The notes below the pieces were generated by a model that was not told the DNA's origin, searched no databases, and saw only the letters and a program-made list of their open reading frames with translations. From a virus (Duplodnaviria > Heunggongvirae > Uroviricota > Caudoviricetes), in IMG/VR virus record IMGVR_UViG_2531839402_000001: a stretch of 64,000 bases of DNA, one strand, 5' to 3'. Below, one piece after another: positions 351 through 54,924 of this stretch (its first letter is position 1; every line of letters begins with the position of its first letter). Position numbers and translations under genes: made by a program.

Positions 351-1292
351 ATGAGATTAAAATACTCAGCACTCTTACTCGCCGTTGCCATTACAGGCTG
401 TGATAACAAAAAAGACGTGATCGGTTGTTCCTCTGAAATGACCCAGTCAGCTCTCATGGATTTAATAAAAAAATCTGCTTATGAAGATCTCTCTGAACAG
501 GTCGACAAATACCCTGACGTCACTAATCAGACCAAACGAAGCGCTTTGGACAAGATTAAACTGACCATCTCTGAAATCTCCACAACTTCAAGTGACACGG
601 GCAGCACAATGAAAACTTGTGAAGGGACCGTGACGATGACCCTACCTGCGAACGAGTACGCACAGCTTTCTGATGCTTACAGAAAGAACTTTAACCGTAA
701 TCTCGACAAGCAAATGGAAAGCCTGTCTTTGGATAACAACGCAAACGCCTTTTCAAAACGCATCTCCTACACCGCACAGGCAACCGACGATCAGAAAAAC
801 GTTTTTGTGAAAGCTACTTCTAACAACCCAATATCAGTGGGTGCCGCTGCACTGACATCGCTTTCCATCATCAACCCGATCGTTGAGCAGCAAAAAATCC
901 AGCAGGCTAAGGATGCCCAGCGAAGTCAAATTGAAGCGGAACAACAAGCACAACTCAGGGCGCAGCAACAGGATAAATATGAGGCGGAGCAGCAGGTTCA
1001 GCAAACCATTCAACAACAATCCTACCAGCAGCCTCAGCAACAAAAAGCTGACAACCTTGATCAGTCCCGAATGGCTTTTGCGAATGCTGACTCTGATTTG
1101 AATACCGCTTGGAGCACATTAACACCAGAGAAGAAAAAAGAGTTGCTGCCTTCTCAGCGCCAGTGGATCAAAACTAAGGACGCTATGTGCGGCAAAGTTT
1201 CAATGCAGGGAACAGATGCTGAAGTCAAGAAAATGGTCGACTGCCAGACGCAAATGACCCTTTCAAGGACCGCGTTCTTCAGAAATCAATAG
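351..1292 (+). CDS. Lipoprotein with Q-rich coiled coil and C-terminal DUF1311/LprI-like domain
   Basis: Signal peptide plus lipobox (LLLAVAITGC); Gln-rich repeat region; C-terminal WIKTKDAMCG...CQTQMT pattern typical of the LprI/DUF1311 lysozyme-inhibitor-like fold. Confidence 0.55.
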   Translation: MRLKYSALLLAVAITGCDNKKDVIGCSSEMTQSALMDLIKKSAYEDLSEQVDKYPDVTNQTKRSALDKIKLTISEISTTSSDTGSTMKTCEGTVTMTLPANEYAQLSDAYRKNFNRNLDKQMESLSLDNNANAFSKRISYTAQATDDQKNVFVKATSNNPISVGAAALTSLSIINPIVEQQKIQQAKDAQRSQIEAEQQAQLRAQQQDKYEAEQQVQQTIQQQSYQQPQQQKADNLDQSRMAFANADSDLNTAWSTLTPEKKKELLPSQRQWIKTKDAMCGKVSMQGTDAEVKKMVDCQTQMTLSRTAFFRNQ

Positions 1293-1790
1293 CGGAAACT
1301 CCCTTCAATCTGGTGGCCAAGGCTAAGCTGGCGCCAGCGTAATGCGGGATAATTTCAGCCGTTGTTCCATGATGCCCCACGCCGGATATTTTACTCGCGG
1401 TTAGAACGGGATTTTGGGACGTAAATATTTCATTAAAGGCGATGACCATCATAGTCATCGACTACATGAATTTTCTGTTAAAGATATGCAAGTATTAAGA
1501 CATCTTACTTTCCGTGATTACCAATGATGTTAATCGTTGCAGGCACTCAAAACCGTCCACATGAGTCTTGCCCAACCAATAGCCGCCACCATACTCTCTC
1601 TCGCTGGAAAAAGACGCACTGGCCAGGTTTGAAATGTTTAAGTGTCTCGCCTCTGTAGACGATCTGATAACTGGTGTCTTTTCCGCCCATTTTATCATCC
1701 CAAAATACTGTATATTTAAACAGTTACTCTTTGATGAAATGCAGTCAAGTTTGACAGCGGGGATAATAACTTGTTGGTGAAAACAAATTA

Positions 1791-1840: not shown

Positions 1841-2569
1841 TCATGATTCGGTGGCGTGTGGGTTTTGCCGCTGCAGTGTCTTGACCTGTTCTTCAAGCTC
1901 ACGCACATACTCAACGAGAGATCCGCCTGGCGGTATTTGGCACTCTTCCATGAGTTGATAGTAAACGTCGGCTGCCGCGCGAATGTTTGAGCCTTTGGTT
2001 AACTGATCACTGAGCAGTTCGTCACGCTCTTTCATAAGCCGCACGCATTCTCCATTGCGTTGGTCGACTACAGCCTCAAGCTCTGCGATGCGCTCGCCTG
2101 GCGTTTTGCCATCCTTACGTTGAGTCGTAACCGTGAAACATCCAAGTTCAGGAACGTCGTAGTTCAATTCCAGATAGTTTTTTGCACCGTGTCGAACAAA
2201 TTCGCCGGCGAACATGGTGGCGAACATGGCAGAGGCCAGCTCTCCGTTAAACAACGACTCCAGATCTACAGGAGTGCCAGCAGCAAGAGCGGCGCGCGCA
2301 GCCTCTATGACATGCATAAACTCATCATAATGTCTGGCGCGCTTCTCCAGCTCTGCCCACTGCTGACTGTTTCGACGCACCAGGTACTCAATAAAAATCA
2401 GCGCTGATTCGTCGGCGTCGCCTTCAAATGAGACCTTACCCTTATCGACAATAATCGTGCCCACAGCGGTTGGGTTGTTGCCCTGAAGGCAAAATCTGAA
2501 AGGAGTCCCCGTGTTCATCGGTGATACAGCCTGTATATCCATAGAAGTGGCTTTATTCCTGCTTTCCAT
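1841..2569 (-). CDS. Hypothetical phage protein
   Basis: 242-aa ORF, RBS GAGGGAAA upstream, preceded by a copy of the conserved 20-bp palindrome. Confidence 0.5.
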   Translation of the reverse strand: MESRNKATSMDIQAVSPMNTGTPFRFCLQGNNPTAVGTIIVDKGKVSFEGDADESALIFIEYLVRRNSQQWAELEKRARHYDEFMHVIEAARAALAAGTPVDLESLFNGELASAMFATMFAGEFVRHGAKNYLELNYDVPELGCFTVTTQRKDGKTPGERIAELEAVVDQRNGECVRLMKERDELLSDQLTKGSNIRAAADVYYQLMEECQIPPGGSLVEYVRELEEQVKTLQRQNPHATES

Positions 2570-2630
2570 GTGTTTTTCCCTCTAAGTATCGCGTCATTAT
2601 TCTTACATAAAATAAGTATGTGGTTACCTA

Positions 2631-4314
2631 TTATTTTATGCGTTTGAAGACATACACACTGACAGTTATCCCCGTGTCATCAAACTCGCCTGTGAACGAC
2701 TTACCTTTGGCGTAGACGAAATTCTCCAGCATCATCCAGTTCAGGGTTGGTGAGTCCCCCGGCAAAACAGCAACAAGGCGCCCGCCGACTTTAAGATGCT
2801 CCAGCGCGGCCAGCGTATGCTCTCTGTGACGGCCAAGAGAGTAGGGCGGGTTCATGACGATTTTGTCGAACTGATAGCCTGCGTTGTCCTCAGACCACTT
2901 CATGAAGTCACAGCAGACCGTATTTGTGTACCCCTTGCCAAGCAGGATATCAGCGAAGAGAGGTGCGACTTCTATGCAGGTAACGTCTTCCGGATTGGCG
3001 TCGATGCAGGCCAACAGATCTCCGCGCCCGGCTTCAGGCTCCAGCAGCTTCTCACCTGGCTTCAGCTCGATGGCTCTGGCAACGTACTCCGCTATCAAAC
3101 GTGGGGTAGGGTAGAACTGGTGTGATTTTGTATCCGGTATTAAGCCGGTGGCCACAATCGTATTGAGCGTATGGCCGATCTCATACGGGAACTGCCAGTG
3201 CTTTTTCTCCTGCACGCCGCCAATGAAGTTCAGTGTGCGCTCAAGCTCTTCCACCTGTGACTTCTGTAGGTTGGAATCAGAGAAGTACCAGACGCCTTTG
3301 TCTTTGCTGAATCGCCCGTCGCGCAGCGCGGTACGAACCGGCTCGGAGATCGTCTTCTGGATTAACCCGAACTCTTTTGGTGCCCGTATTTTGGGTGCAG
3401 TACGGCATGGCGCCGGGATTGCTGCAGGCATACTGTAAGCCAGCACCTCATTCAGCTTCCAGGCCACGTCAGGATGTATTTCAAAGTGAACGTTGCCGTT
3501 CTTGAACATCTTCACGCGCATCAGGTTTCCGTCGACATTCATCCAGTCACCGGTCTGGCAGTCGTTTGCCCGGTACGCAGCTGATAGCATCTCAGTTGTG
3601 CGGTTGATGGTGATGAACTCTTTGTGTGCGAAGAAATGAAGCATGACGCGCAGGTCGTCGATGTAGTCCTCTTTCCGGTAGTTCACGCTGACGCTGTCCC
3701 GCCAGAACTCGGAAATGCAGTTGGCGATGATCAGACGCTCGCTAAAGCCGTTCGTCTTATTGGTCTTGTGGGCAGGACTCAGCGCTTTAAACAAGCCATA
3801 CACGCGCTCAGAGAGATATTTGTGCCTGTCATTCAGCAGATTGAGCATCGTTGGGATGACCGTTTCTGCTTTGAACTCCGGCACACCAACGAACTCCTTC
3901 ACCTTCATCTGGTAGCCGGTTCTGTCTGTTTTGATGGTCTCCTGCTTGCCCTCGATGAACTGCTCACGCCACTCGTCGCGGCGGGAAGCTGGCATGATCA
4001 GCAGAACGTTTGTCATATCCGTGACCTTCTTCCAGTACTCGGCCCAGATATTCTGTTTCACCCATTCCAGGTCGACTTTGTCCAGCCAGGCTCTGTTAAA
4101 GCGTGTGCGCTCGTCATCCGGCCGGTGGTTGAGTCGCAGCAGGCGGTTAATCATGTTGTGGCGTTCGTCGCCATAAACGAAGTCGTGAACCTGATGCATG
4201 AATGCGATCTCTTTCTCGCACTCGGCCACAATTTCGTGGATGACGTTCATTTCCTGCCGGTAGTCGATATCAGTGTTTGGGGTGATAGCGTCAATGATGG
4301 AAAGGGCTGTATTC
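2631..4314 (-). CDS. Orphan N6-adenine DNA methyltransferase with ~380-aa N-terminal extension
   Basis: C-terminal domain has the Rossmann SAM motif (LEPEAGRGDL) and the catalytic MNPPYS motif. The ORF track starts at a TTG (4334); the ATG at 4314 with GGTG RBS is more likely. The N-terminal 380 aa show no recognisable motif. Confidence 0.7.
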
Positions 4315-50619: not shown

Positions 50620-50739
50620 ATTGAGTCCTTTCAAGTGAGTCACTGAAAGAACTATACCCGTAAATAATAGGTAAGTCATTACTTATTATTTGTGGTTCTG
50701 GACATCCCCATCTAGGGATGGGAAATCCCATCCAACGGC

Positions 50740-52131
50740 TTATGCTTCATGTTGCTTTTTGAGATCGCTTCTAGCATAGCTCCACTCAATAATGTTGTCG
50801 GGTCGTTGCTGATCGAAAAGGATTCGGGATTCAATACCATTACCTAAAAAGCTGGTATGCCCATCTACGTAAGAAGCTATCCCTTGCGAACCAACATGAA
50901 GAATATTTTCTAATGGTTGTTTTGTTCTCGCCGTATTGCTAAGGAGAAATAAACCTGGGTACGCTTTGTTAGCACGGTGAAAAAAAAGTTCATTGTCAAA
51001 ACACATGACGATGATTATTTGTCCCGACATGAGATCGGAGAGCATTTCAGTTGGCAGATGCAAACTCATAAATGGCCGAGACAAAGGGTCAAAGAATGAA
51101 TCGTTTATATTCACAACAGGGCTTTTTATATCGAGGCCATCCATCCATCCATTGAAGGCAACAAAACCCATTTTAGAATCACGGTACATACCTAAGAACA
51201 AACATTCATCAATAGTATCAATTGCCCAATTTTTTCCTCCGCGAATAATCTCCCACATTTTAACTAAACGGTGGGTATAAAACTCAGATGGATGGTCTAT
51301 CTCATCGATTTTAACTTTAGATTGATGAAGATTGTCAAAGCCCTCGCCAGTATTAATCGCCTCCAGCACATTCATACCACGAACGATTTGCCTTTTTATG
51401 CGATTAAATTGCTTAACATCATTTTCAGGCATATTGCTAATGAAGTTTTCTTCAAAGTTCGGACACTCTGAGATAACAGAAAATTCGGCAGCTTCATAAA
51501 GCTCATTATTCTTTTTGCCTGTTTTAACTTCCACGAGTTGAAAGCCATCCAGTGGATTAAAGGTGACTAAATCCCCCACATGAACAAATGTACTCATGTC
51601 AGAGACAATCGCTACGGCGTGTTTGTCCTGATTGATAAGATCGGCTGCGACCATAGAATCAATTATGTTATCTTCTGATAGATTGTCGTTGCCTGTATTA
51701 ATAGGTAAACGCCGCAAACTCGAGTGATCTTCATCAAGTATGCTCCAAATTAGTGAGTCAATACAACGGCGAAGAATAAGAATTTCAAATTTTTTTAAAT
51801 TTATTTCATCAATACACTTTTCTTTCTTTTCTTTATCCTTGTTTCGATGATGCTCTTTTTTTTCAACTTCCAATTTTTTTATATCTCGCAACCGAAAAAT
51901 AATCTCAAAAGATATAAGTTTCTGTGCGTCTTTCCAATTTTTGAGACAGATTTCATACTCTTCAAGAAAAATTTCATCATTGGAAGGTTGTTCTTGAATT
52001 GGGTCTTCACCCCTTATCATTTTGGCAAGTGAATGCAGTTGAAATACAAAGTGAGGTGATAAAATTGTCCAAAATTTTCTAAACGGTTTGTATTTTTCAA
52101 TAAAAGTTGATTCGTCAGTATAATTTATCAT
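50740..52131 (-). CDS. Hypothetical 463-aa protein; possible PD-(D/E)xK-like core; partner of the AbiH-like gene
   Basis: AT-rich codon usage. Central VHVGDLVTF...FQLVEVKTGK resembles a D...ExK nuclease core (weak). Lys/Glu-rich helical N-terminal region. Confidence 0.45.
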   Translation of the reverse strand: MINYTDESTFIEKYKPFRKFWTILSPHFVFQLHSLAKMIRGEDPIQEQPSNDEIFLEEYEICLKNWKDAQKLISFEIIFRLRDIKKLEVEKKEHHRNKDKEKKEKCIDEINLKKFEILILRRCIDSLIWSILDEDHSSLRRLPINTGNDNLSEDNIIDSMVAADLINQDKHAVAIVSDMSTFVHVGDLVTFNPLDGFQLVEVKTGKKNNELYEAAEFSVISECPNFEENFISNMPENDVKQFNRIKRQIVRGMNVLEAINTGEGFDNLHQSKVKIDEIDHPSEFYTHRLVKMWEIIRGGKNWAIDTIDECLFLGMYRDSKMGFVAFNGWMDGLDIKSPVVNINDSFFDPLSRPFMSLHLPTEMLSDLMSGQIIIVMCFDNELFFHRANKAYPGLFLLSNTARTKQPLENILHVGSQGIASYVDGHTSFLGNGIESRILFDQQRPDNIIEWSYARSDLKKQHEA

Positions 52132-52220
52132 AACTAAACTACCTCTTATCTATTTTTCTTAAGGTACAAACTGCCAGCCTTATTTTTTTACACAATTATA
52201 GTTATAATGTGAAGTCTCAT

Positions 52221-53093
52221 TCAGATATCTTCATACTGCACGTAAGAAATATTTGAGTCTCTGACATCATAATCTTCTAAGCTGCCTGACTTTTCCTCAC
52301 CTCTATATAAAGCAACTATCCATCGAGCATTTTCTTGGATGCTTTTATTTATTTCAGCGAAGTATTCACCGTCAACTTCGGCAAGCGAATGGCCTAAAAC
52401 AATGACCTCATCCACATTTTTAAGCGACGAGAAAAAAACGCTCTCTTCTTTAATTATGTTTTCGCTGGGCTTGAATGTATTACCGAAGTATTCGTCTATG
52501 CTGTCGTATGCTTCTGCTATTCTTGTATCTTGATCCGGCCCTATATATGGATTTAGTGACTTTTCAACCCTAAAACTGTGACCTAGTATGAGATCGTCAT
52601 CGTAAATACAATTGCCGTGAATATGCATGATTTGCGCGTCTGGAACGGCATAGATCTGCTGCAAGGTATTGGTATAATTAAATGAAAAATAGAGGCTTTC
52701 TCTTGATATGGGCGGGATGTATTGCTCAGAATTGCAAGCATCGGTTATGTTAATCCCTTTAACCCAATCAGCGAATTGCTCCTTCAAGCGAGCTGACAGC
52801 ATCCGTGTGATTTTATCTACTTCATATTGGTAATCGTGATGATAGGCATCGCTCCAATCATCGGTATTGTACGAAGCCAAAAACATCTCACTGTTTTGAA
52901 GGATAAGCTCATAATCAATTGCGCCTAAAGCACTTTCTAACTCGTTCCATTCGTCTCCAGCAGGCAGGTATTCTTCTATCGCGTCATATAGTTCTTGGTC
53001 ATGTTTTGCTACATACGACTTAAAGTGCTTGTATCCTGTTGGCAAGCCATGTCGAATATCAAATCCGTTTCCTATTATGTAAAGCCTCATCGT
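52221..53093 (-). CDS. AbiH-family abortive-infection-like protein
   Basis: N-terminal MRLYIIGNGFDIRHGLPTGYKHF matches the AbiH signature (LxIIGNGFDxxHGLxTxY). AT-rich. The start is chosen at this motif rather than the longer track ORF. Confidence 0.55.
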   Translation of the reverse strand, partial: TMRLYIIGNGFDIRHGLPTGYKHFKSYVAKHDQELYDAIEEYLPAGDEWNELESALGAIDYELILQNSEMFLASYNTDDWSDAYHHDYQYEVDKITRMLSARLKEQFADWVKGINITDACNSEQYIPPISRESLYFSFNYTNTLQQIYAVPDAQIMHIHGNCIYDDDLILGHSFRVEKSLNPYIGPDQDTRIAEAYDSIDEYFGNTFKPSENIIKEESVFFSSLKNVDEVIVLGHSLAEVDGEYFAEINKSIQENARWIVALYRGEEKSGSLEDYDVRDSNISYVQYEDI

Positions 53094-53385
53094 TTTTCCC
53101 TTAGTCGAATGGTAAAAAGATACTAACCGACTAAAGAAAAACATAAAACCAAAAGTCGCTATCAAATACAACCACGAATTTTCAATCTGACTACCAACCT
53201 CCATAGACGCAAAAAAGGGGCCGAAGCCCCTTTGGAATTTGCGCTAAAAAGTGTTGATACAATGCTAGGAATCAATGGTTAAGAACGTCTGCCGTGTCTA
53301 TCACAGCGCTGAACGGTCTGGCGACATTTGCGGAGTCTTTCCGTTCGGACGGTGGTGGCGAACTCCAAACCGTTCAGCGCTGTGT

Positions 53386-53460
53386 TGGCGATGGTGGGTG
53401 GACTCGAACCACCGACCAGTTGATTAAAAGTCAACCGCTCTACCACTGAGCTACACCATC
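53386..53460 (-). tRNA. tRNA-Lys (anticodon UUU)
   Basis: Cloverleaf folded by hand: acceptor GATGGTG/CACCATC, D-arm GCTC-AGTGGTA-GAGC, anticodon arm GTTGA-CTTTTAA-TCAAC, T-arm GGTGG-TTCGAGT-CCACC, discriminator G, encoded CCA. Confidence 0.8.
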
Positions 53461-53900
53461 ATTATTCGCGGCGGTACTTGTTCATGGACAACCAGGCAAC
53501 CAAGAACTTTCCCGCAACTTGCACTTTACGTTAGTGCCAGACGAGGCTTGTGGCTCGCTCACATAGAGCGAAGATCTGGAATCCTTCTCGGCGGTTGATG
53601 GCCGCCAGACTCTTCGATCTTATTGGATGTATGGAATCATCCATGTTGTGAAACCAGGGGCTACATAGGCAACAATGATTTCACCAGAGGGTTAAAGAAT
53701 CCTGCTTTCACAACGTTGAGGCCACTGAACCGATTTATGTTCGACCCAACATATTGATCAGTCACTACAGCTCTGTGGAATCACCTGTATGATTAAAAGA
53801 AAAACAGTGACCTCAACGTTGTGCGCTGGCTAACCAAGCCAGCCGGGTTACGTCGCCGCTTTTAACCCAAAATAAAACGACATAAGTAATGGAAATGACG

Positions 53901-53975
53901 TAACAGGATGGGCGGTCAGCTGTCTGAAACCGGGATGATGGAATGGAATGAGGAAACCAGCCGCCCATCCTGTTA
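53901..53975. other. 15-bp perfect inverted repeat (taacaggatgggcgg / ccgcccatcctgtta) with 45-nt loop in an ORF-free region
   Basis: Seen directly in sequence; lies within a 1.26-kb stretch without ORFs >60 aa. Confidence 0.4.
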
Positions 53976-54470
53976 CTTCATCGAATAGGGCATGGGTGGT
54001 GCAACATGCCCTATCCTGCGTTCTGCAAGGGGTGAGTTTGGAGATCGGAAATTATTGTACGTTAAGCCTGTTTTTTGAACAGATCGCGCTATCGCAATAG
54101 GGTGTACTCCTGCACTATACGGCATTTAGCCTGTATGTTTGGGTAATGAGAAAACCTAAATGCGACAGCGTGAGCGCAATAACTTAAATGCGATAGTCAG
54201 TGACAATAAATCAATCAGTTACCAATCAGAAACGGTTAAATTATGTTCTTAACGTACAATAATTTCCGTTTCCCAAACCGACCCCTGCAATCACACTCGC
54301 TCAGTGTGTCCCATTTCGGTGACGAGGCTGGAAACTGACCTCGCTGGTGTTTGGCTTCTTAGGCTACTGCCAGGTACGTATCTTCGTTTGCAGTTATATT
54401 TAACGTTCAAACAGTCGCGTCTCAACGAAAACAAATGAATCTTATACATAATAGATAAGTAAGTAAATAC

Positions 54471-54776
54471 TTATTTTTCTGTAACTCGTTCAGTTGCTAT
54501 CTTTTTGATCAAGCTCACCTTCTGTTCTGGCGTTCTCGTGATGATGGCCGTAAAACGCTTCGCTTGAATAGTGATAGTTTCGTTCTCCTTCAGTTCGCCG
54601 TAGTGAGTCTCCAGCAGAGAACCCAGGCGCCACAGACCGTCATCTATGCGTTTATGGCTGGCAAATCTGATCAGCAGTAGCTTTACGATTAACTGACCAA
54701 TGTAAAAGGCATATCCGAAGCCGGCCGCCACAAGGTAGGTTGCCAGCCACCAGTCGAATGAGGTCAAATTGCTCAT
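54471..54776 (-). CDS. Small membrane protein
   Basis: 101 aa with an N-terminal hydrophobic helix pair. Confidence 0.4.
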   Translation of the reverse strand: MSNLTSFDWWLATYLVAAGFGYAFYIGQLIVKLLLIRFASHKRIDDGLWRLGSLLETHYGELKENETITIQAKRFTAIITRTPEQKVSLIKKIATERVTEK

Positions 54777-54924
54777 TTCTGCACTCCCGTCTCGTGAACA
54801 ACCCGATACAGACGCTTACCGATGCGAAGCGTTTTGGTTTTCAGTTCCTGCCTGACCAGATCGCGACAGATACTGAAGCCGAGGGCCACGCCCCCAGCAA
54901 AAGATAATAGGATGTATGGAATCA

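What the first reader, a model, noticed from the sequence alone, without database searches (positions are those of the whole stretch)
53205..54470. 1.26-kb ORF-free structured region carrying tRNA-Lys(UUU) and a 15-bp perfect inverted repeat
No ORF over 60 aa on either strand despite normal GC content. It contains a well-formed tRNA-Lys (53386..53460, minus), a 15-bp perfect inverted repeat with a 45-nt loop (53901..53975) and a second hairpin gctggctaaccaagccagc (~53829..53847). It ends in a palindrome-family copy at 54451. This is a candidate for a long structured ncRNA, a lytic origin or packaging site, or the attachment/insertion hotspot that received the AbiH cassette.
Basis: seen in the sequence. 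Interest (0 to 1): 0.55.

Follow-up and report, generated by a model that had tools for sequence, protein, structure and literature searches.

The report
Phage-plasmid tmRNA-like RNA plus tRNA operon
The "empty" 1.3 kb is a conserved non-coding RNA operon of SSU5- and P1-type phage-plasmids: a large folded RNA carrying an SsrA/tmRNA-style tag template, then a tRNA and a terminator, here split by a miniature transposon and carrying a tRNA with a mutated anticodon.

Summary
In detail: there is no conserved ORF, and the tRNA, the 15-bp inverted repeat and the hairpins are real. The region is a minus-strand non-coding operon found in hundreds of SSU5-like phage-plasmids. It consists of a ~650-nt structured RNA, tRNA(s), a conserved 20-bp trailer hairpin and an intrinsic terminator. 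Helices covary, and G·U pairs occur almost only on the minus strand. The near-invariant 5' block holds a tmRNA-type tag template with no start codon: GCA AAC GAA GAU ACG UAC CUG GCA GUA GCC UAA = ANEDTYLAVA*. Within-lineage variation in it is mostly synonymous. A diverged homologue (ANDDLMMVAA*) lies unannotated in the phage P1 ban-operon leader, upstream of trnA. No tRNA-like domain was found, so it is not a canonical tmRNA, and how the tag would be used is unknown. Three features are specific to this window. A 257-bp MITESen1-family TIME (5-bp duplication TGCAA) splits the RNA. The "tRNA-Lys(UUU)" is the family's tRNA-Asn(GUU) with one anticodon change, and its nearest relative has GUG. The AbiH cassette sits directly after the operon's terminator, at a slot that holds different cargo in relatives, including the caf1 operon in Y. 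pestis pMT1. Origin, packaging-site and attachment-site readings found no support.

The parts
54455..54474 (.). Copy of the genome-wide palindrome family ATAAGTA-N6-TACTTAT. It overlaps the stop codon of the upstream gene (54471..54776, minus strand).
   Evidence: 13 matches in the window against 0.13 expected.
54412..54432 (-). Conserved 5' motif GUUUUCGUUGAGACGCGACUG (GUUUUCG ... GCGACU), invariant in SSU5-like elements and shared with phage P1. It is the probable start region of the RNA. In P1 it lies directly after an intrinsic terminator.
54359..54391 (-). tmRNA-type tag template: resume codon GCA, 10 codons (ANEDTYLAVA), stop UAA. No start codon or Shine-Dalgarno sequence. The upstream context is AUAACU.
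   Evidence: one hit in 64 kb against 0.003 expected. (Rfam tmRNA_permuted alignment of the P1 homologue). (ARAGORN resume consensus).
54322..54344 (-). Post-tag hairpin GCGAGG-UCAGUUUCCAG-CCUCGU. It is invariant in SSU5-like elements. The P1 homologue CGGGG...CCCCG keeps the stem through a compensatory change.
   Evidence: helix 4, 100% paired.
54292..54308 (-). Hairpin CACACU-GAGCG-AGUGUG.
   Evidence: helix 6.
54029..54285 (+). 257-bp MITESen1-family TIME (Tn3-derived miniature element) with 38/39-nt terminal inverted repeats GGGG...ACGTTAAG. The 5-bp target duplication TGCAA is at 54024..54028 and 54286..54290. It is inserted into the invariant hairpin UGC-AGAAC-GCA of the RNA.
53985..54014 (-). 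Hairpin AUAGGGCAUG...CAUGCCCUAU, the most strongly covarying helix (5 pairs changed on both sides).
   Evidence: helix 8.
53895..53981 (-). Long stem (24 pairs, 99.3% paired, many G-C<->G·U exchanges). A homologous stem exists in P1.
   Evidence: (helix 9).
53848..53885 (-). Helix UUAUGUCGUU / GGCGACGUAA.
   Evidence: helices 10-11.
53825..53843 (-).
   Evidence: helix 12.
53709..53823 (-). 19-bp stem enclosing 77 nt, with compensatory G-C<->A-U changes and U·G<->C-G exchanges.
   Evidence: helix 13.
53640..53719 (-). Stem UGUGAAAGCAGG / CCUGGUUUCACA; 6 pairs changed on both sides.
   Evidence: helix 17.
53461..53639 (-). 3' third of the structured RNA (helices 20-25, several of them covarying), running up to the tRNA 5' end.
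53386..53460 (-). tRNA with anticodon UUU. The body is identical to SSU5 tRNA-Asn(GUU) except G34->U. Discriminator G73; CCA is encoded.
53302..53384 (-). Conserved 20-bp trailer hairpin directly 3' of the tRNA. It occurs in more than 100 loci with two compensatory pairs, and its U·G wobble is a standard pair only on the minus strand.
53210..53235 (-). Intrinsic terminator AAAGGGGC-UUCG-GCCCCUUU followed by a U tract. This is the end of the conserved backbone.
   Evidence: The consensus scan missed it.
50693..53209 (-). Cargo cassette (463-aa ORF of unknown function plus AbiH). It replaces 164 bp of cassette-less relatives and abuts the terminator on one side and a palindrome-family copy (50662..50691) on the other.

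Best explanation
Window 54432..53210 (minus strand) is one non-coding transcription unit. It is shared by SSU5-like phage-plasmids and, in diverged and shorter form, by P1-like phages.

The unit encodes four elements in order:
1. A large structured RNA, about 650 nt without the MITE.
2. One or more tRNAs: ancestrally Asn-GUU, in relatives also Thr-UGU, Tyr-GUA and Ser-UGA.
3. A conserved 20-bp trailer hairpin.
4. An intrinsic terminator.

Shown: conservation, covarying strand-specific helices, absence of any conserved ORF, and synteny.

Inferred: RNase P cleavage at the tRNA 5' end releases the upstream RNA as a stable molecule.

The 5' domain of that RNA is a tmRNA-type coding module: a single-stranded UA-rich resume context, a GCA resume codon, 10 codons ending in ...YLAVA, and UAA. 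The peptide is conserved in a way that indicates translation.

My working model, which is inference, is that the operon is a lytic-phase "translation-support" module. It would supply replacement tRNAs for tRNAs attacked by anticodon-arm nucleases, together with a phage-specified template for tagging or rescue of stalled ribosomes. How the template is delivered to the ribosome is unresolved, because no tRNA-like domain is present.

In this particular element a MITESen1-like TIME has transposed into the RNA 68 nt downstream of the tag's stop codon. The tRNA anticodon has changed from GUU to UUU. A 2.5-kb AbiH cassette occupies the variable cargo slot just past the terminator.

The confidence given (0.7) is for the anatomy: a conserved ncRNA-tRNA operon with a tmRNA-type template, the TIME insertion, the anticodon change and the cargo slot. 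The functional model (tagging or ribosome rescue, counter-defence) I rate at about 0.3-0.4.
For: Family and synteny:
- The region is 98.6% identical to phage SSU5 and occurs in 803 PLSDB plasmids.
- The order ligase - small ORFs - RNA - tRNA(s) - variable cargo - phoH holds in L001-L013.

RNA structure:
- Alignment A1 has 44 sequences non-redundant at 98%.
- 94.7% of pair cells are standard pairs, against 31-50% when partners are slid.
- 39 pairs changed on both sides, reached by 0 of 500 shuffles.
- G·U versus A·C counts are 598:61 in the RNA, the same ratio as in the tRNA control (132:17).
- MFE z = -7.5.
- No ORF is conserved, and 1-2-nt indels occur in the conserved block.

Tag template:
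- All 21 nucleotide variants found in the 189 loci fetched are in frame.
- Within-lineage changes are mostly synonymous third positions: TAT/TAC, GCC/GCT/GCA, CTG/CTA, GCA/GCT, ACG/ACA.
- A generic SsrA-tag pattern occurs once in six frames of the 64-kb window, exactly here, against 0.003 expected.
- The P1 homologue (ANDDLMMVAA*) matches Rfam tmRNA_permuted at 24.1 bits, E = 0.005-0.01, aligned over UAAAUGCAAACGAU...GUAGCnGCCUAA.
- ARAGORN recognises a resume consensus there.

Independent unit: in P1 an intrinsic terminator immediately precedes the conserved 5' motif.

Trailer hairpin and terminator.

TIME.

Anticodon.

Against: - No tRNA-like domain was found. ARAGORN at default thresholds finds no tmRNA. 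The only T-arm + acceptor + NCC in the 64-kb window is the tRNA itself.
- Rfam tmRNA matches are below gathering score, and for SSU5 they are insignificant (11.8-11.9 bits).
- Overall similarity to E. coli ssrA is not significant (z = 1.8 and 0.95).
- No sigma-70 consensus promoter was found. The best candidate, TTGAGA-N17-TAAATA, is weak.
- No transcript data were available.
- The third-position bias rests on about 12 substitutions (p ~0.02 by my own count).
- The 5' 160 nt are nearly invariant within the SSU5-like group, so their fold is supported only by comparison with P1.
- The window's tRNA carries the UAAUC|A sequence that AriB cleaves best (one search compared). Nuclease resistance is therefore not evident from the sequence.
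Confidence: 0.7

Rival explanations
1. The structured RNA is only a long processed leader of the tRNA operon. It would act as a folding or processing scaffold, or hold protective hairpins against RNases, and have no function of its own. The tag-like frame would be a relic of a captured tmRNA fragment.
For: The RNA is always immediately upstream of tRNA-Asn, at a roughly constant distance. No tRNA-like domain was found. A MITE insertion is tolerated in two genomes.
Against: The 5' block is at least as conserved as the tRNA itself and more conserved than the rest of the RNA. The tag frame is kept in two families that share little other sequence, with mostly synonymous variation. Y. pestis pMT1 keeps the first 512 nt at 96% identity, tag included, although it has lost the tRNA.
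Confidence: 0.2
2. The region is a lytic replication origin: a transcript that primes DNA synthesis in the manner of ColE1 RNA II or a T4 R-loop origin. It lies inside the replication-gene module.
For: It lies between ligase/primase/helicase and DNA polymerase genes. In P1 the homologue lies in the ban (helicase) operon leader. A structured RNA with a conserved 5' end would fit a primer.
Against: There is no GC-skew inflection, no iterons or AT-rich unwinding element, and no Rfam match to replication RNAs. A MITE splits it without loss of the plasmid. The peptide-level conservation of a 10-codon frame is unexplained by a primer.
Confidence: 0.05
3. The region is an attachment or recombination site (attP-like) next to a tRNA, or a packaging (pac) site. 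The inverted repeats would be protein-binding DNA sites.
For: Cargo differs next to the tRNA in different plasmids: AbiH, caf1, integrase plus YafO toxin-antitoxin, IS elements. Tn3-type elements are reported "near tRNA loci" of SSU5 phage-plasmids.
Against: The cassette boundary lies beyond the terminator, not in the repeats. There are no flanking direct repeats or tRNA-fragment duplications. The stems tolerate G·U only on one strand, which DNA-binding palindromes would not show. The stems also covary instead of keeping a fixed recognition sequence.
Confidence: 0.04
4. The region encodes short conserved proteins that were missed by a 60-aa cut-off.
For: Some records annotate small hypothetical ORFs here: Salmonella Anatum plasmid pSAN1-1735 (L004) and phage SJ46.
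Against: No ORF of 30 aa or more is positionally conserved in more than 13 of 35 lineages. Frame-breaking indels occur throughout.
Confidence: 0.02

Closest known systems
tmRNA (SsrA), especially two-piece/permuted forms (Rfam RF04321, RF01850)
   Same: A start-codon-less 10-codon template begins GCA AAC GA(N), with a UA-rich resume context, Tyr at the sixth template codon as in E. coli ANDENYALAA, an Ala/Val/Leu C-terminus and UAA. It is followed by hairpins and is embedded in a large folded RNA. There is a sub-threshold Rfam match.
   Different: There is no tRNA-like domain: no acceptor stem with G3·U70, no T-arm and no CCA apart from a separate complete tRNA. The RNA is longer (~650 nt). 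The tag ends AVA rather than LAA in the SSU5-like group. Scores are below the Rfam gathering threshold, and ARAGORN is negative at default settings.
Phage P1/P7 ban-operon leader (Pban/Op72, "dicF-like region", trnA, trnT)
   Same: It is the homologous locus. It shares the 5' motif, the tag template, the post-tag hairpin, the long AACAGG...CCUGUU stem and the same tRNA-Asn. This places the unit under C1-repressor control in P1.
   Different: The P1 RNA is shorter (~420 nt) and carries a different tag (ANDDLMMVAA). It is preceded by the dicF-like segment and a terminator. The stretch between the dicF-like region and trnA carries no annotation in NC_005856.
[quoted passage not shown]
   Same: It is 257 bp against 256 bp for the reference and 77.6% identical over the full length. 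It has 38-bp GGGG...ACGTTAAG-type inverted repeats, a 5-bp target duplication and no transposase (PMC13367494).
   Different: It is a diverged subtype. It is a solitary copy, not a TIME-COMP, and carries no resistance gene. Its target is a conserved ncRNA gene.
Phage tRNA sets that counter anticodon-arm nucleases (T5 tRNA-Lys/Thr/Asn against PARIS AriB)
   Same: The module carries tRNA-Asn(GUU) and, in relatives, tRNA-Thr(UGU), the same species AriB targets. The window's variant reads Lys (UUU), the prime AriB target.
   Different: Nothing has been tested for these tRNAs. The window's tRNA keeps the UAAUC|A cleavage-site sequence, so resistance cannot be read from the sequence.
GOLLD and ROOL large structured RNAs (my own knowledge: often found next to tRNAs in phages and prophages)
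   Same: It is a large, ornate, covarying RNA adjacent to phage tRNAs, with unknown function.
   Different: There is no Rfam match at E<=10. The host range differs (Enterobacteriaceae phage-plasmids). It contains a tag template.

Membership tests
tRNA (RF00005) | Cloverleaf scoring above the Rfam gathering threshold and detected by ARAGORN | tested here: met
   76.7 bits against a threshold of 29; ARAGORN.
tRNA-Lys isoacceptor | Anticodon UUU | tested here: met
   Anticodon ttt at position 33-35 of the ARAGORN call.
tRNA-Lys isoacceptor | A tRNA-Lys body and discriminator (A73 in E. coli, from my own knowledge) rather than another family's scaffold | tested here: not met
   The body is identical to SSU5 tRNA-Asn(GUU) at 74 of 75 positions, with G73. 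The other 156 copies of this tRNA examined have GTT and one has GTG. Which amino acid it accepts cannot be tested here.
tmRNA (SsrA) | mRNA-like domain: resume codon without a start codon, short tag ORF with a hydrophobic Ala-rich end, in-frame stop | tested here: met
   GCA...GCC UAA = ANEDTYLAVA*. Conserved in frame in the SSU5-like and P1-like families.
tmRNA (SsrA) | tRNA-like domain: acceptor stem with G3·U70, T-arm, 3' CCA, in standard or permuted order | tested here: not met
   ARAGORN default is negative. Relaxed calls give inconsistent domains and many false positives. A pattern scan of the window finds only the tRNA.
tmRNA (SsrA) | Rfam covariance-model score at or above the gathering threshold | tested here: not met
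   P1 homologue 24.1 bits against 47. SSU5 homologue 11.8-11.9 bits.
tmRNA (SsrA) | Pseudoknots flanking the tag, and a 5'-3' closing helix (P2) | tested here: inconclusive
   The P1-like consensus fold pairs the 5' motif with a region ~115 nt upstream of trnA (18 bp, with only one-sided G·U/G-C changes). In SSU5-like elements only short long-range helices appear. Pseudoknots were not modelled.
tmRNA (SsrA) | Alanylation, SmpB binding and trans-translation activity | not testable with these tools
   These need biochemistry or genetics.
TIME / MITESen1 | Tn3-family ~38-bp terminal inverted repeats beginning GGGG | tested here: met
   Arms 54028..54066 and 54248..54286, 87% complementary. They align with the MITESen1 inverted repeats.
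TIME / MITESen1 | 5-bp target-site duplication and a matching empty site in relatives | tested here: met
   TGCAA lies on both sides. SSU5 has a single TGCAA and no element.
TIME / MITESen1 | Non-autonomous element with no transposase, and full-length similarity to the reference | tested here: met
   257 bp, and 77.6% identity to the 256-bp MITESen1 reference. Related copies occur in 3,726 plasmid records.
Intrinsic terminator | GC-rich hairpin followed by a U tract on the transcribed strand | tested here: met
   AAAGGGGC-UUCG-GCCCCUUU followed by UUUGCG in the MFE and centroid folds. The simple scan missed it.
GOLLD / ROOL / other Rfam large RNAs | Match to the family covariance model | tested here: not met
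   Apart from the tRNA and the weak tmRNA matches, only chance-level weak matches to unrelated families appear, at E<=1 in the window and E<=10 in intact SSU5.
tRNA-linked integration site (attP/attB) | Direct repeats, or a duplicated tRNA 3' fragment, flanking the inserted cassette | tested here: not met
   No such repeats occur around 50693 and 53209. The junctions fall at a palindrome-family copy and at the terminator.

The most novel reading that the evidence does not exclude
P1-like and SSU5-like phage-plasmids encode a previously unrecognised, non-canonical relative of tmRNA. It would be a large structured RNA, co-transcribed with replacement tRNAs and under lytic control (C1-controlled in P1). 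Its template would be translated to append a phage-specified tag (...YLAVA or ...MMVAA) to nascent chains on stalled ribosomes. It would use either an unrecognised acceptor module or the host's trans-translation machinery. The operon as a whole would be a counter-measure to tRNA-cleaving defences. The anticodon switches seen here (GUU->UUU, and GUU->GUG in the sister plasmid) would be adaptive retargeting of the replacement tRNA.
Probability: 0.3. Interest if true: 0.9.

Novelty: new variant of a known kind. Interest (0 to 1): 0.72.

Why it matters
SSU5-like and P1-like phage-plasmids are among the commonest extrachromosomal elements of clinical Enterobacteriaceae. The two forms of this RNA matched 803 and 1,022 PLSDB records, the second count including records that match only the tRNA, and P1 is a textbook phage. 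A conserved RNA of 420-650 nt that carries an SsrA-type tag template but no tRNA-like domain is absent from Rfam 15 and unannotated in the P1 reference genome.

If it is functional, it would be a new way for a virus to engage ribosome rescue or protein tagging. It would also link phage tRNA sets to trans-translation in the arms race with tRNA-cleaving defences.

Several smaller points follow as well:
- Spurious "hypothetical protein" calls over this region can be corrected.
- The tRNA here should be annotated with care, because it has an Asn scaffold and a Lys anticodon.
- The cargo slot that holds AbiH here also holds the caf1 (F1 capsule) operon in Y. pestis pMT1.
- A MITESen1-type TIME can land in a phage-plasmid ncRNA gene.

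Tried and rejected
- Rfam at gathering and E-value thresholds on the window, SSU5, P1 and nine relatives gave only tRNAs and sub-threshold tmRNA matches. There was no DicF match to P1's "dicF-like region" at E<=5.
- The promoter and terminator consensus scan found no credible sigma-70 promoter upstream of the RNA. Its only hit lies inside the MITE, and it missed the real terminator.
- The GC-skew profile shows no origin-like inflection.
- Search for a tRNA-like domain failed: ARAGORN at 100, 90, 80 and 70% thresholds, acceptor-strand regexes, and a T-arm + acceptor + NCC scan of the whole window.
- Global alignment of the P1 and SSU5 5' domains to E. coli ssrA against shuffles was not significant. 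The resemblance I first saw between GGUUAGCGAC and the tmRNA GGAUUCGAC motif is therefore dropped.
- Duplex search for a conserved partner of the 5' motif gave different partners in different lineages.
- A conserved small-ORF test was negative.
- Direct repeats around the AbiH cassette: none.
- Wider searches found only SSU5-like and P1-like elements of Enterobacteriaceae, plus one probably mis-binned MAG contig. These were a tag-pattern scan of GTDB species genomes (5 loci), a scan for the tRNA scaffold with free anticodon in metagenomes (52 loci), and scans of IMG/VR.
- Literature searches for P1 or phage-plasmid tmRNA-like RNAs, for sRNAs near caf1R, and for the tag peptides themselves returned nothing relevant. 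The P1 genome paper could not be read.
Full report
**What the window is.** The region is 98.6% identical to Salmonella phage SSU5 and 99.8% identical to a Klebsiella oxytoca IncFIB plasmid, NZ_CP064109. The window is therefore an SSU5-like phage-plasmid. In SSU5 and 12 other fetched relatives the local gene order is the same: DNA ligase, three or four small ORFs, a ~0.75-1.5-kb stretch without genes that contains tRNA(s), variable cargo, then phoH. All flanking genes and the tRNA are on the window's minus strand.

**Check of the observation.**
One position needs correcting: the short hairpin lies at 53825..53843.
- No ORF reaches 60 aa.
- No ORF of 30 aa or more keeps its position in more than 13 of 35 non-redundant relatives.
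- Indels of 1-2 nt occur even in the most conserved block.
- The sequence is far more foldable than shuffles, with z = -7.5 for the RNA and z = -6.5 for the trailer.

**A miniature transposon.** BLAST against SSU5 leaves window 54029..54284 unmatched, and the flanks overlap by about 5 bp.
- The inserted element is 54029..54285 (257 bp), with 38/39-nt terminal inverted repeats of Tn3 type (GGGG...ACGTTAAG).
- It is flanked by the duplication TGCAA, which is single in SSU5.
- It aligns end to end with the ISfinder MITESen1 sequence printed in Table S2 of PMC13367494, at 77.6% identity. Identity to IS101, IMU and TIME244 is 50-54%.
- Related copies occur in 3,726 plasmid records.
- Among 189 related loci only the K. 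oxytoca plasmid shares this insertion. It is therefore recent.

**A conserved, strand-specific structured RNA.** The stretch between the tRNA and the upstream gene is conserved in 803 PLSDB plasmids of Klebsiella, Escherichia, Enterobacter, Yersinia, Salmonella, Citrobacter and Cronobacter. It is also found in about 90 IMG/VR contigs. I reduced the loci then in hand to 44 sequences at 98% identity, removed the MITE from the window's copy, and aligned them in the RNA sense.
- On an RNAalifold consensus, 94.7% of pair cells are standard pairs, against 31-50% when the 3' partners are slid by 1-3 columns.
- 39 pairs changed on both sides, a value that 0 of 500 column shuffles reach.
- G·U pairs outnumber A·C 598:61, the same ratio as in the tRNA that serves as an internal control (132:17). 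On the plus strand those G·U pairs would be mismatches, so what is selected is a minus-strand single-stranded fold.
- Directly 3' of the tRNA lies a 20-bp hairpin (53384..53302). It is conserved in more than 100 loci with two compensatory pairs.
- After that hairpin comes an intrinsic terminator at 53235..53210.
- Homology with cassette-less plasmids resumes exactly at 53209-53212. The terminator therefore closes the conserved unit.

**The tmRNA-like tag template.** The first ~160 nt of the RNA are almost invariant. Weak Rfam matches to two tmRNA families fell on this block in SSU5.

A search with a tRNA-scaffold pattern then turned up a second lineage with the same tRNA-Asn but a different, shorter upstream RNA. 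That lineage is phage P1/P7 and its relatives.
- In P1 the unit lies in the C1-controlled ban-operon leader. The order is Pban/Op72, a "dicF-like region" ending in an intrinsic terminator, about 420 unannotated nt, then trnA(Asn) and trnT.
- P1 and SSU5-like elements share four things: a 5' motif (GUUUUCG...GCGACU), the sequence UAAA..AU-GCAAACGA...GCCUAAGAAGCCA, a following hairpin whose stem differs by a compensatory change, and a long AACAGG...CCUGUU stem.
- Rfam aligns the P1 segment to the mRNA-like end of the tmRNA_permuted model at 24.1 bits, E = 0.005-0.01. This is below the gathering score of 47.

Read from GCA, the window encodes ANEDTYLAVA followed by a stop at 54391..54359. Other lineages encode ANDNQYLAVA, ANEEVYLAVA, ANEDAYLAVA and, in P1, ANDDLMMVAA. 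For comparison, ARAGORN reads ANDENYALAA from E. coli ssrA.
- There is no start codon or ribosome-binding site, and the frame upstream is not conserved.
- All 21 nucleotide variants of the frame are in frame.
- Within lineages the changes are mostly synonymous third positions. By my count 8 of 12 fall there, binomial p ~0.02.
- A generic SsrA-tag pattern occurs once in all six frames of the 64-kb window, at this spot, against 0.003 expected from shuffles.

I take the template as real.

**What is missing.** A tmRNA needs a tRNA-like domain, and I could not find one.
- ARAGORN is negative at default thresholds. At 80% thresholds it calls permuted tmRNAs with exactly these tags, but among many false positives and with inconsistent domains.
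- Pattern scans find no acceptor/T-arm/CCA other than the tRNA.
- Similarity to E. coli ssrA outside GCAAACGA is not significant.
- The P1-like consensus fold does close the 5' motif onto a segment ~115 nt upstream of trnA. That helix has 18 pairs and three one-sided G·U/G-C exchanges. This is reminiscent of tmRNA helix P2, but the SSU5-like group shows only short long-range helices.

The RNA is therefore not a member of the tmRNA family as that family is defined. It carries a tmRNA-type coding module in a different scaffold.

**The tRNA.**
- The window's tRNA differs from SSU5 tRNA-Asn(GUU) only at position 34 (G->U).
- Of the 157 other copies collected from plasmids, IMG/VR and metagenomes, 156 have GTT. 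The exception is the K. oxytoca sister plasmid, which has GTG.
- The window and that plasmid differ at only 10 positions over 5.8 kb, and two of the ten are anticodon positions 34 and 36. By a binomial estimate that is ~1e-5 if substitutions were neutral.
- Relatives carry arrays here: Ser-UGA, Thr-UGU, Tyr-GUA and Asn-GUU. P1 carries Asn and Thr.
- tRNA-Lys(UUU), Thr(UGU) and Asn(GUU) are the targets of the PARIS nuclease AriB. Phage T5 versions of these three tRNAs rescue infection, and His(GUG) fragments were also seen (PMC12409363).
- This makes selection by tRNA-targeting defence a reasonable lead. However, the window's tRNA has the UAAUC|A site that AriB prefers, so resistance is not evident from the sequence.

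**The cargo slot.**
- Window 50693..53209 holds a 463-aa ORF with no PADLOC match and AbiH (E = 9.9e-29). It replaces 164 bp of the cassette-less Enterobacter plasmid pE5_002.
- At the same place other elements carry AbiH alone, an integrase with a YafO toxin-antitoxin pair, ISKpn34, or unknown genes.
- In Y. pestis pMT1 the slot holds the caf1 operon. There caf1R has removed the tRNA and the last third of the RNA, while the first 512 nt, tag included, remain at 96% identity.
- No direct repeats flank the cassette. Its left edge is a copy of the palindrome family and its right edge is the terminator. This looks like module exchange at intergenic punctuation rather than site-specific integration.

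**Mechanism.**
- Shown: a conserved non-coding unit made of a structured RNA, tRNA(s), a trailer hairpin and a terminator.
- Shown: a translated-looking SsrA-type template at its 5' end.
- Shown: lytic (C1) control of the homologous unit in P1, as annotated.
- Inferred: RNase P releases the upstream RNA.
- Inferred: the unit supports translation during lytic growth by supplying tRNAs and a tagging or rescue template. This would be useful when host defences cleave tRNAs and ribosomes stall.
- Unknown: how a template without an acceptor domain reaches the ribosome.

The main rival is a merely structural tRNA leader carrying a relic of a tmRNA. The origin, packaging-site and attachment-site readings have no positive evidence.

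**Novelty.**
- The TIME and the tRNA are ordinary kinds of element.
- The RNA has no Rfam family.
- It is unannotated in the P1 reference genome.
- Its tag peptides appear in none of the ~8 million papers and preprints searched.
- I could not read the 2004 P1 genome paper, so an earlier passing mention cannot be excluded.

Noticed in passing
window 53426 and 53428 (anticodon positions 36 and 34 of the tRNA at 53386..53460); L107 (NZ_CP064109): Two nearly identical plasmids (10 differences in 5.8 kb) carry different anticodons on the same tRNA-Asn scaffold: UUU in the window and GUG in K. oxytoca. The 156 other copies examined have GUU. Both variants belong to the only lineage that has the MITE and this AbiH cassette. 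This looks like selection on the anticodon.
   Followed up: partly
window 2612, 6502, 7569, 9158, 9826, 15885, 25316, 30270, 32650, 50667, 54455, 58048, 61494: The palindrome family ATAAGTA-N6-TACTTAT has 13 copies (up to 2 mismatches) against 0.13 expected. One copy marks the left edge of the AbiH cassette (50662..50691) and another overlaps the stop codon at 54471. It may be a phage promoter, operator or terminator motif and a recombination boundary.
   Followed up: partly
window 50740..52131 (minus strand): The 463-aa ORF co-inserted with AbiH has no PADLOC match. It may be an uncharacterised partner of AbiH.
   Followed up: no
window 54051..54079 (minus strand), inside the MITE: The only sigma-70-like promoter match in 53100..54800 (TTCAAA-17-AATAAT) lies inside the TIME and points toward the downstream RNA and tRNA. 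It could re-drive their transcription after the insertion.
   Followed up: no
L005 (Y. pestis pMT1, NZ_CP045146) 2501..3013: The caf1 (F1 capsule) operon occupies the same cargo slot. caf1R ends inside the RNA, and the tRNA and the last ~220 nt of the RNA are gone. The first 512 nt, with the tag ANEDTYLAVA, are kept at 96% identity.
   Followed up: partly
L180 (phage P1 NC_005856) 2442..2543: The annotated "dicF-like region" of P1 gets no Rfam DicF match at E<=5. It ends in a clean intrinsic terminator just before the tmRNA-like unit.
   Followed up: partly
L182 (phage SJ46) 592..909 and 925..1344; L004 2818..2976: Hypothetical-protein CDSs are annotated over the structured RNA in some records. 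They are not conserved and are probably spurious.
   Followed up: partly
L188 (JAFAFU010000017.1, "Bacillota bacterium" MAG): A 5.9-kb contig of a Bacillota MAG carries the P1-type RNA with the tag ANDDLMMVAA. It is probably a mis-binned Enterobacteriaceae phage-plasmid contig.
   Followed up: no
window 53221: Apart from the two anticodon changes, this is the only other difference from the sister plasmid within 53100..54600. It lies in the terminator stem: a C-G pair in the window, and a C·A mismatch on the RNA strand in L107.
   Followed up: no
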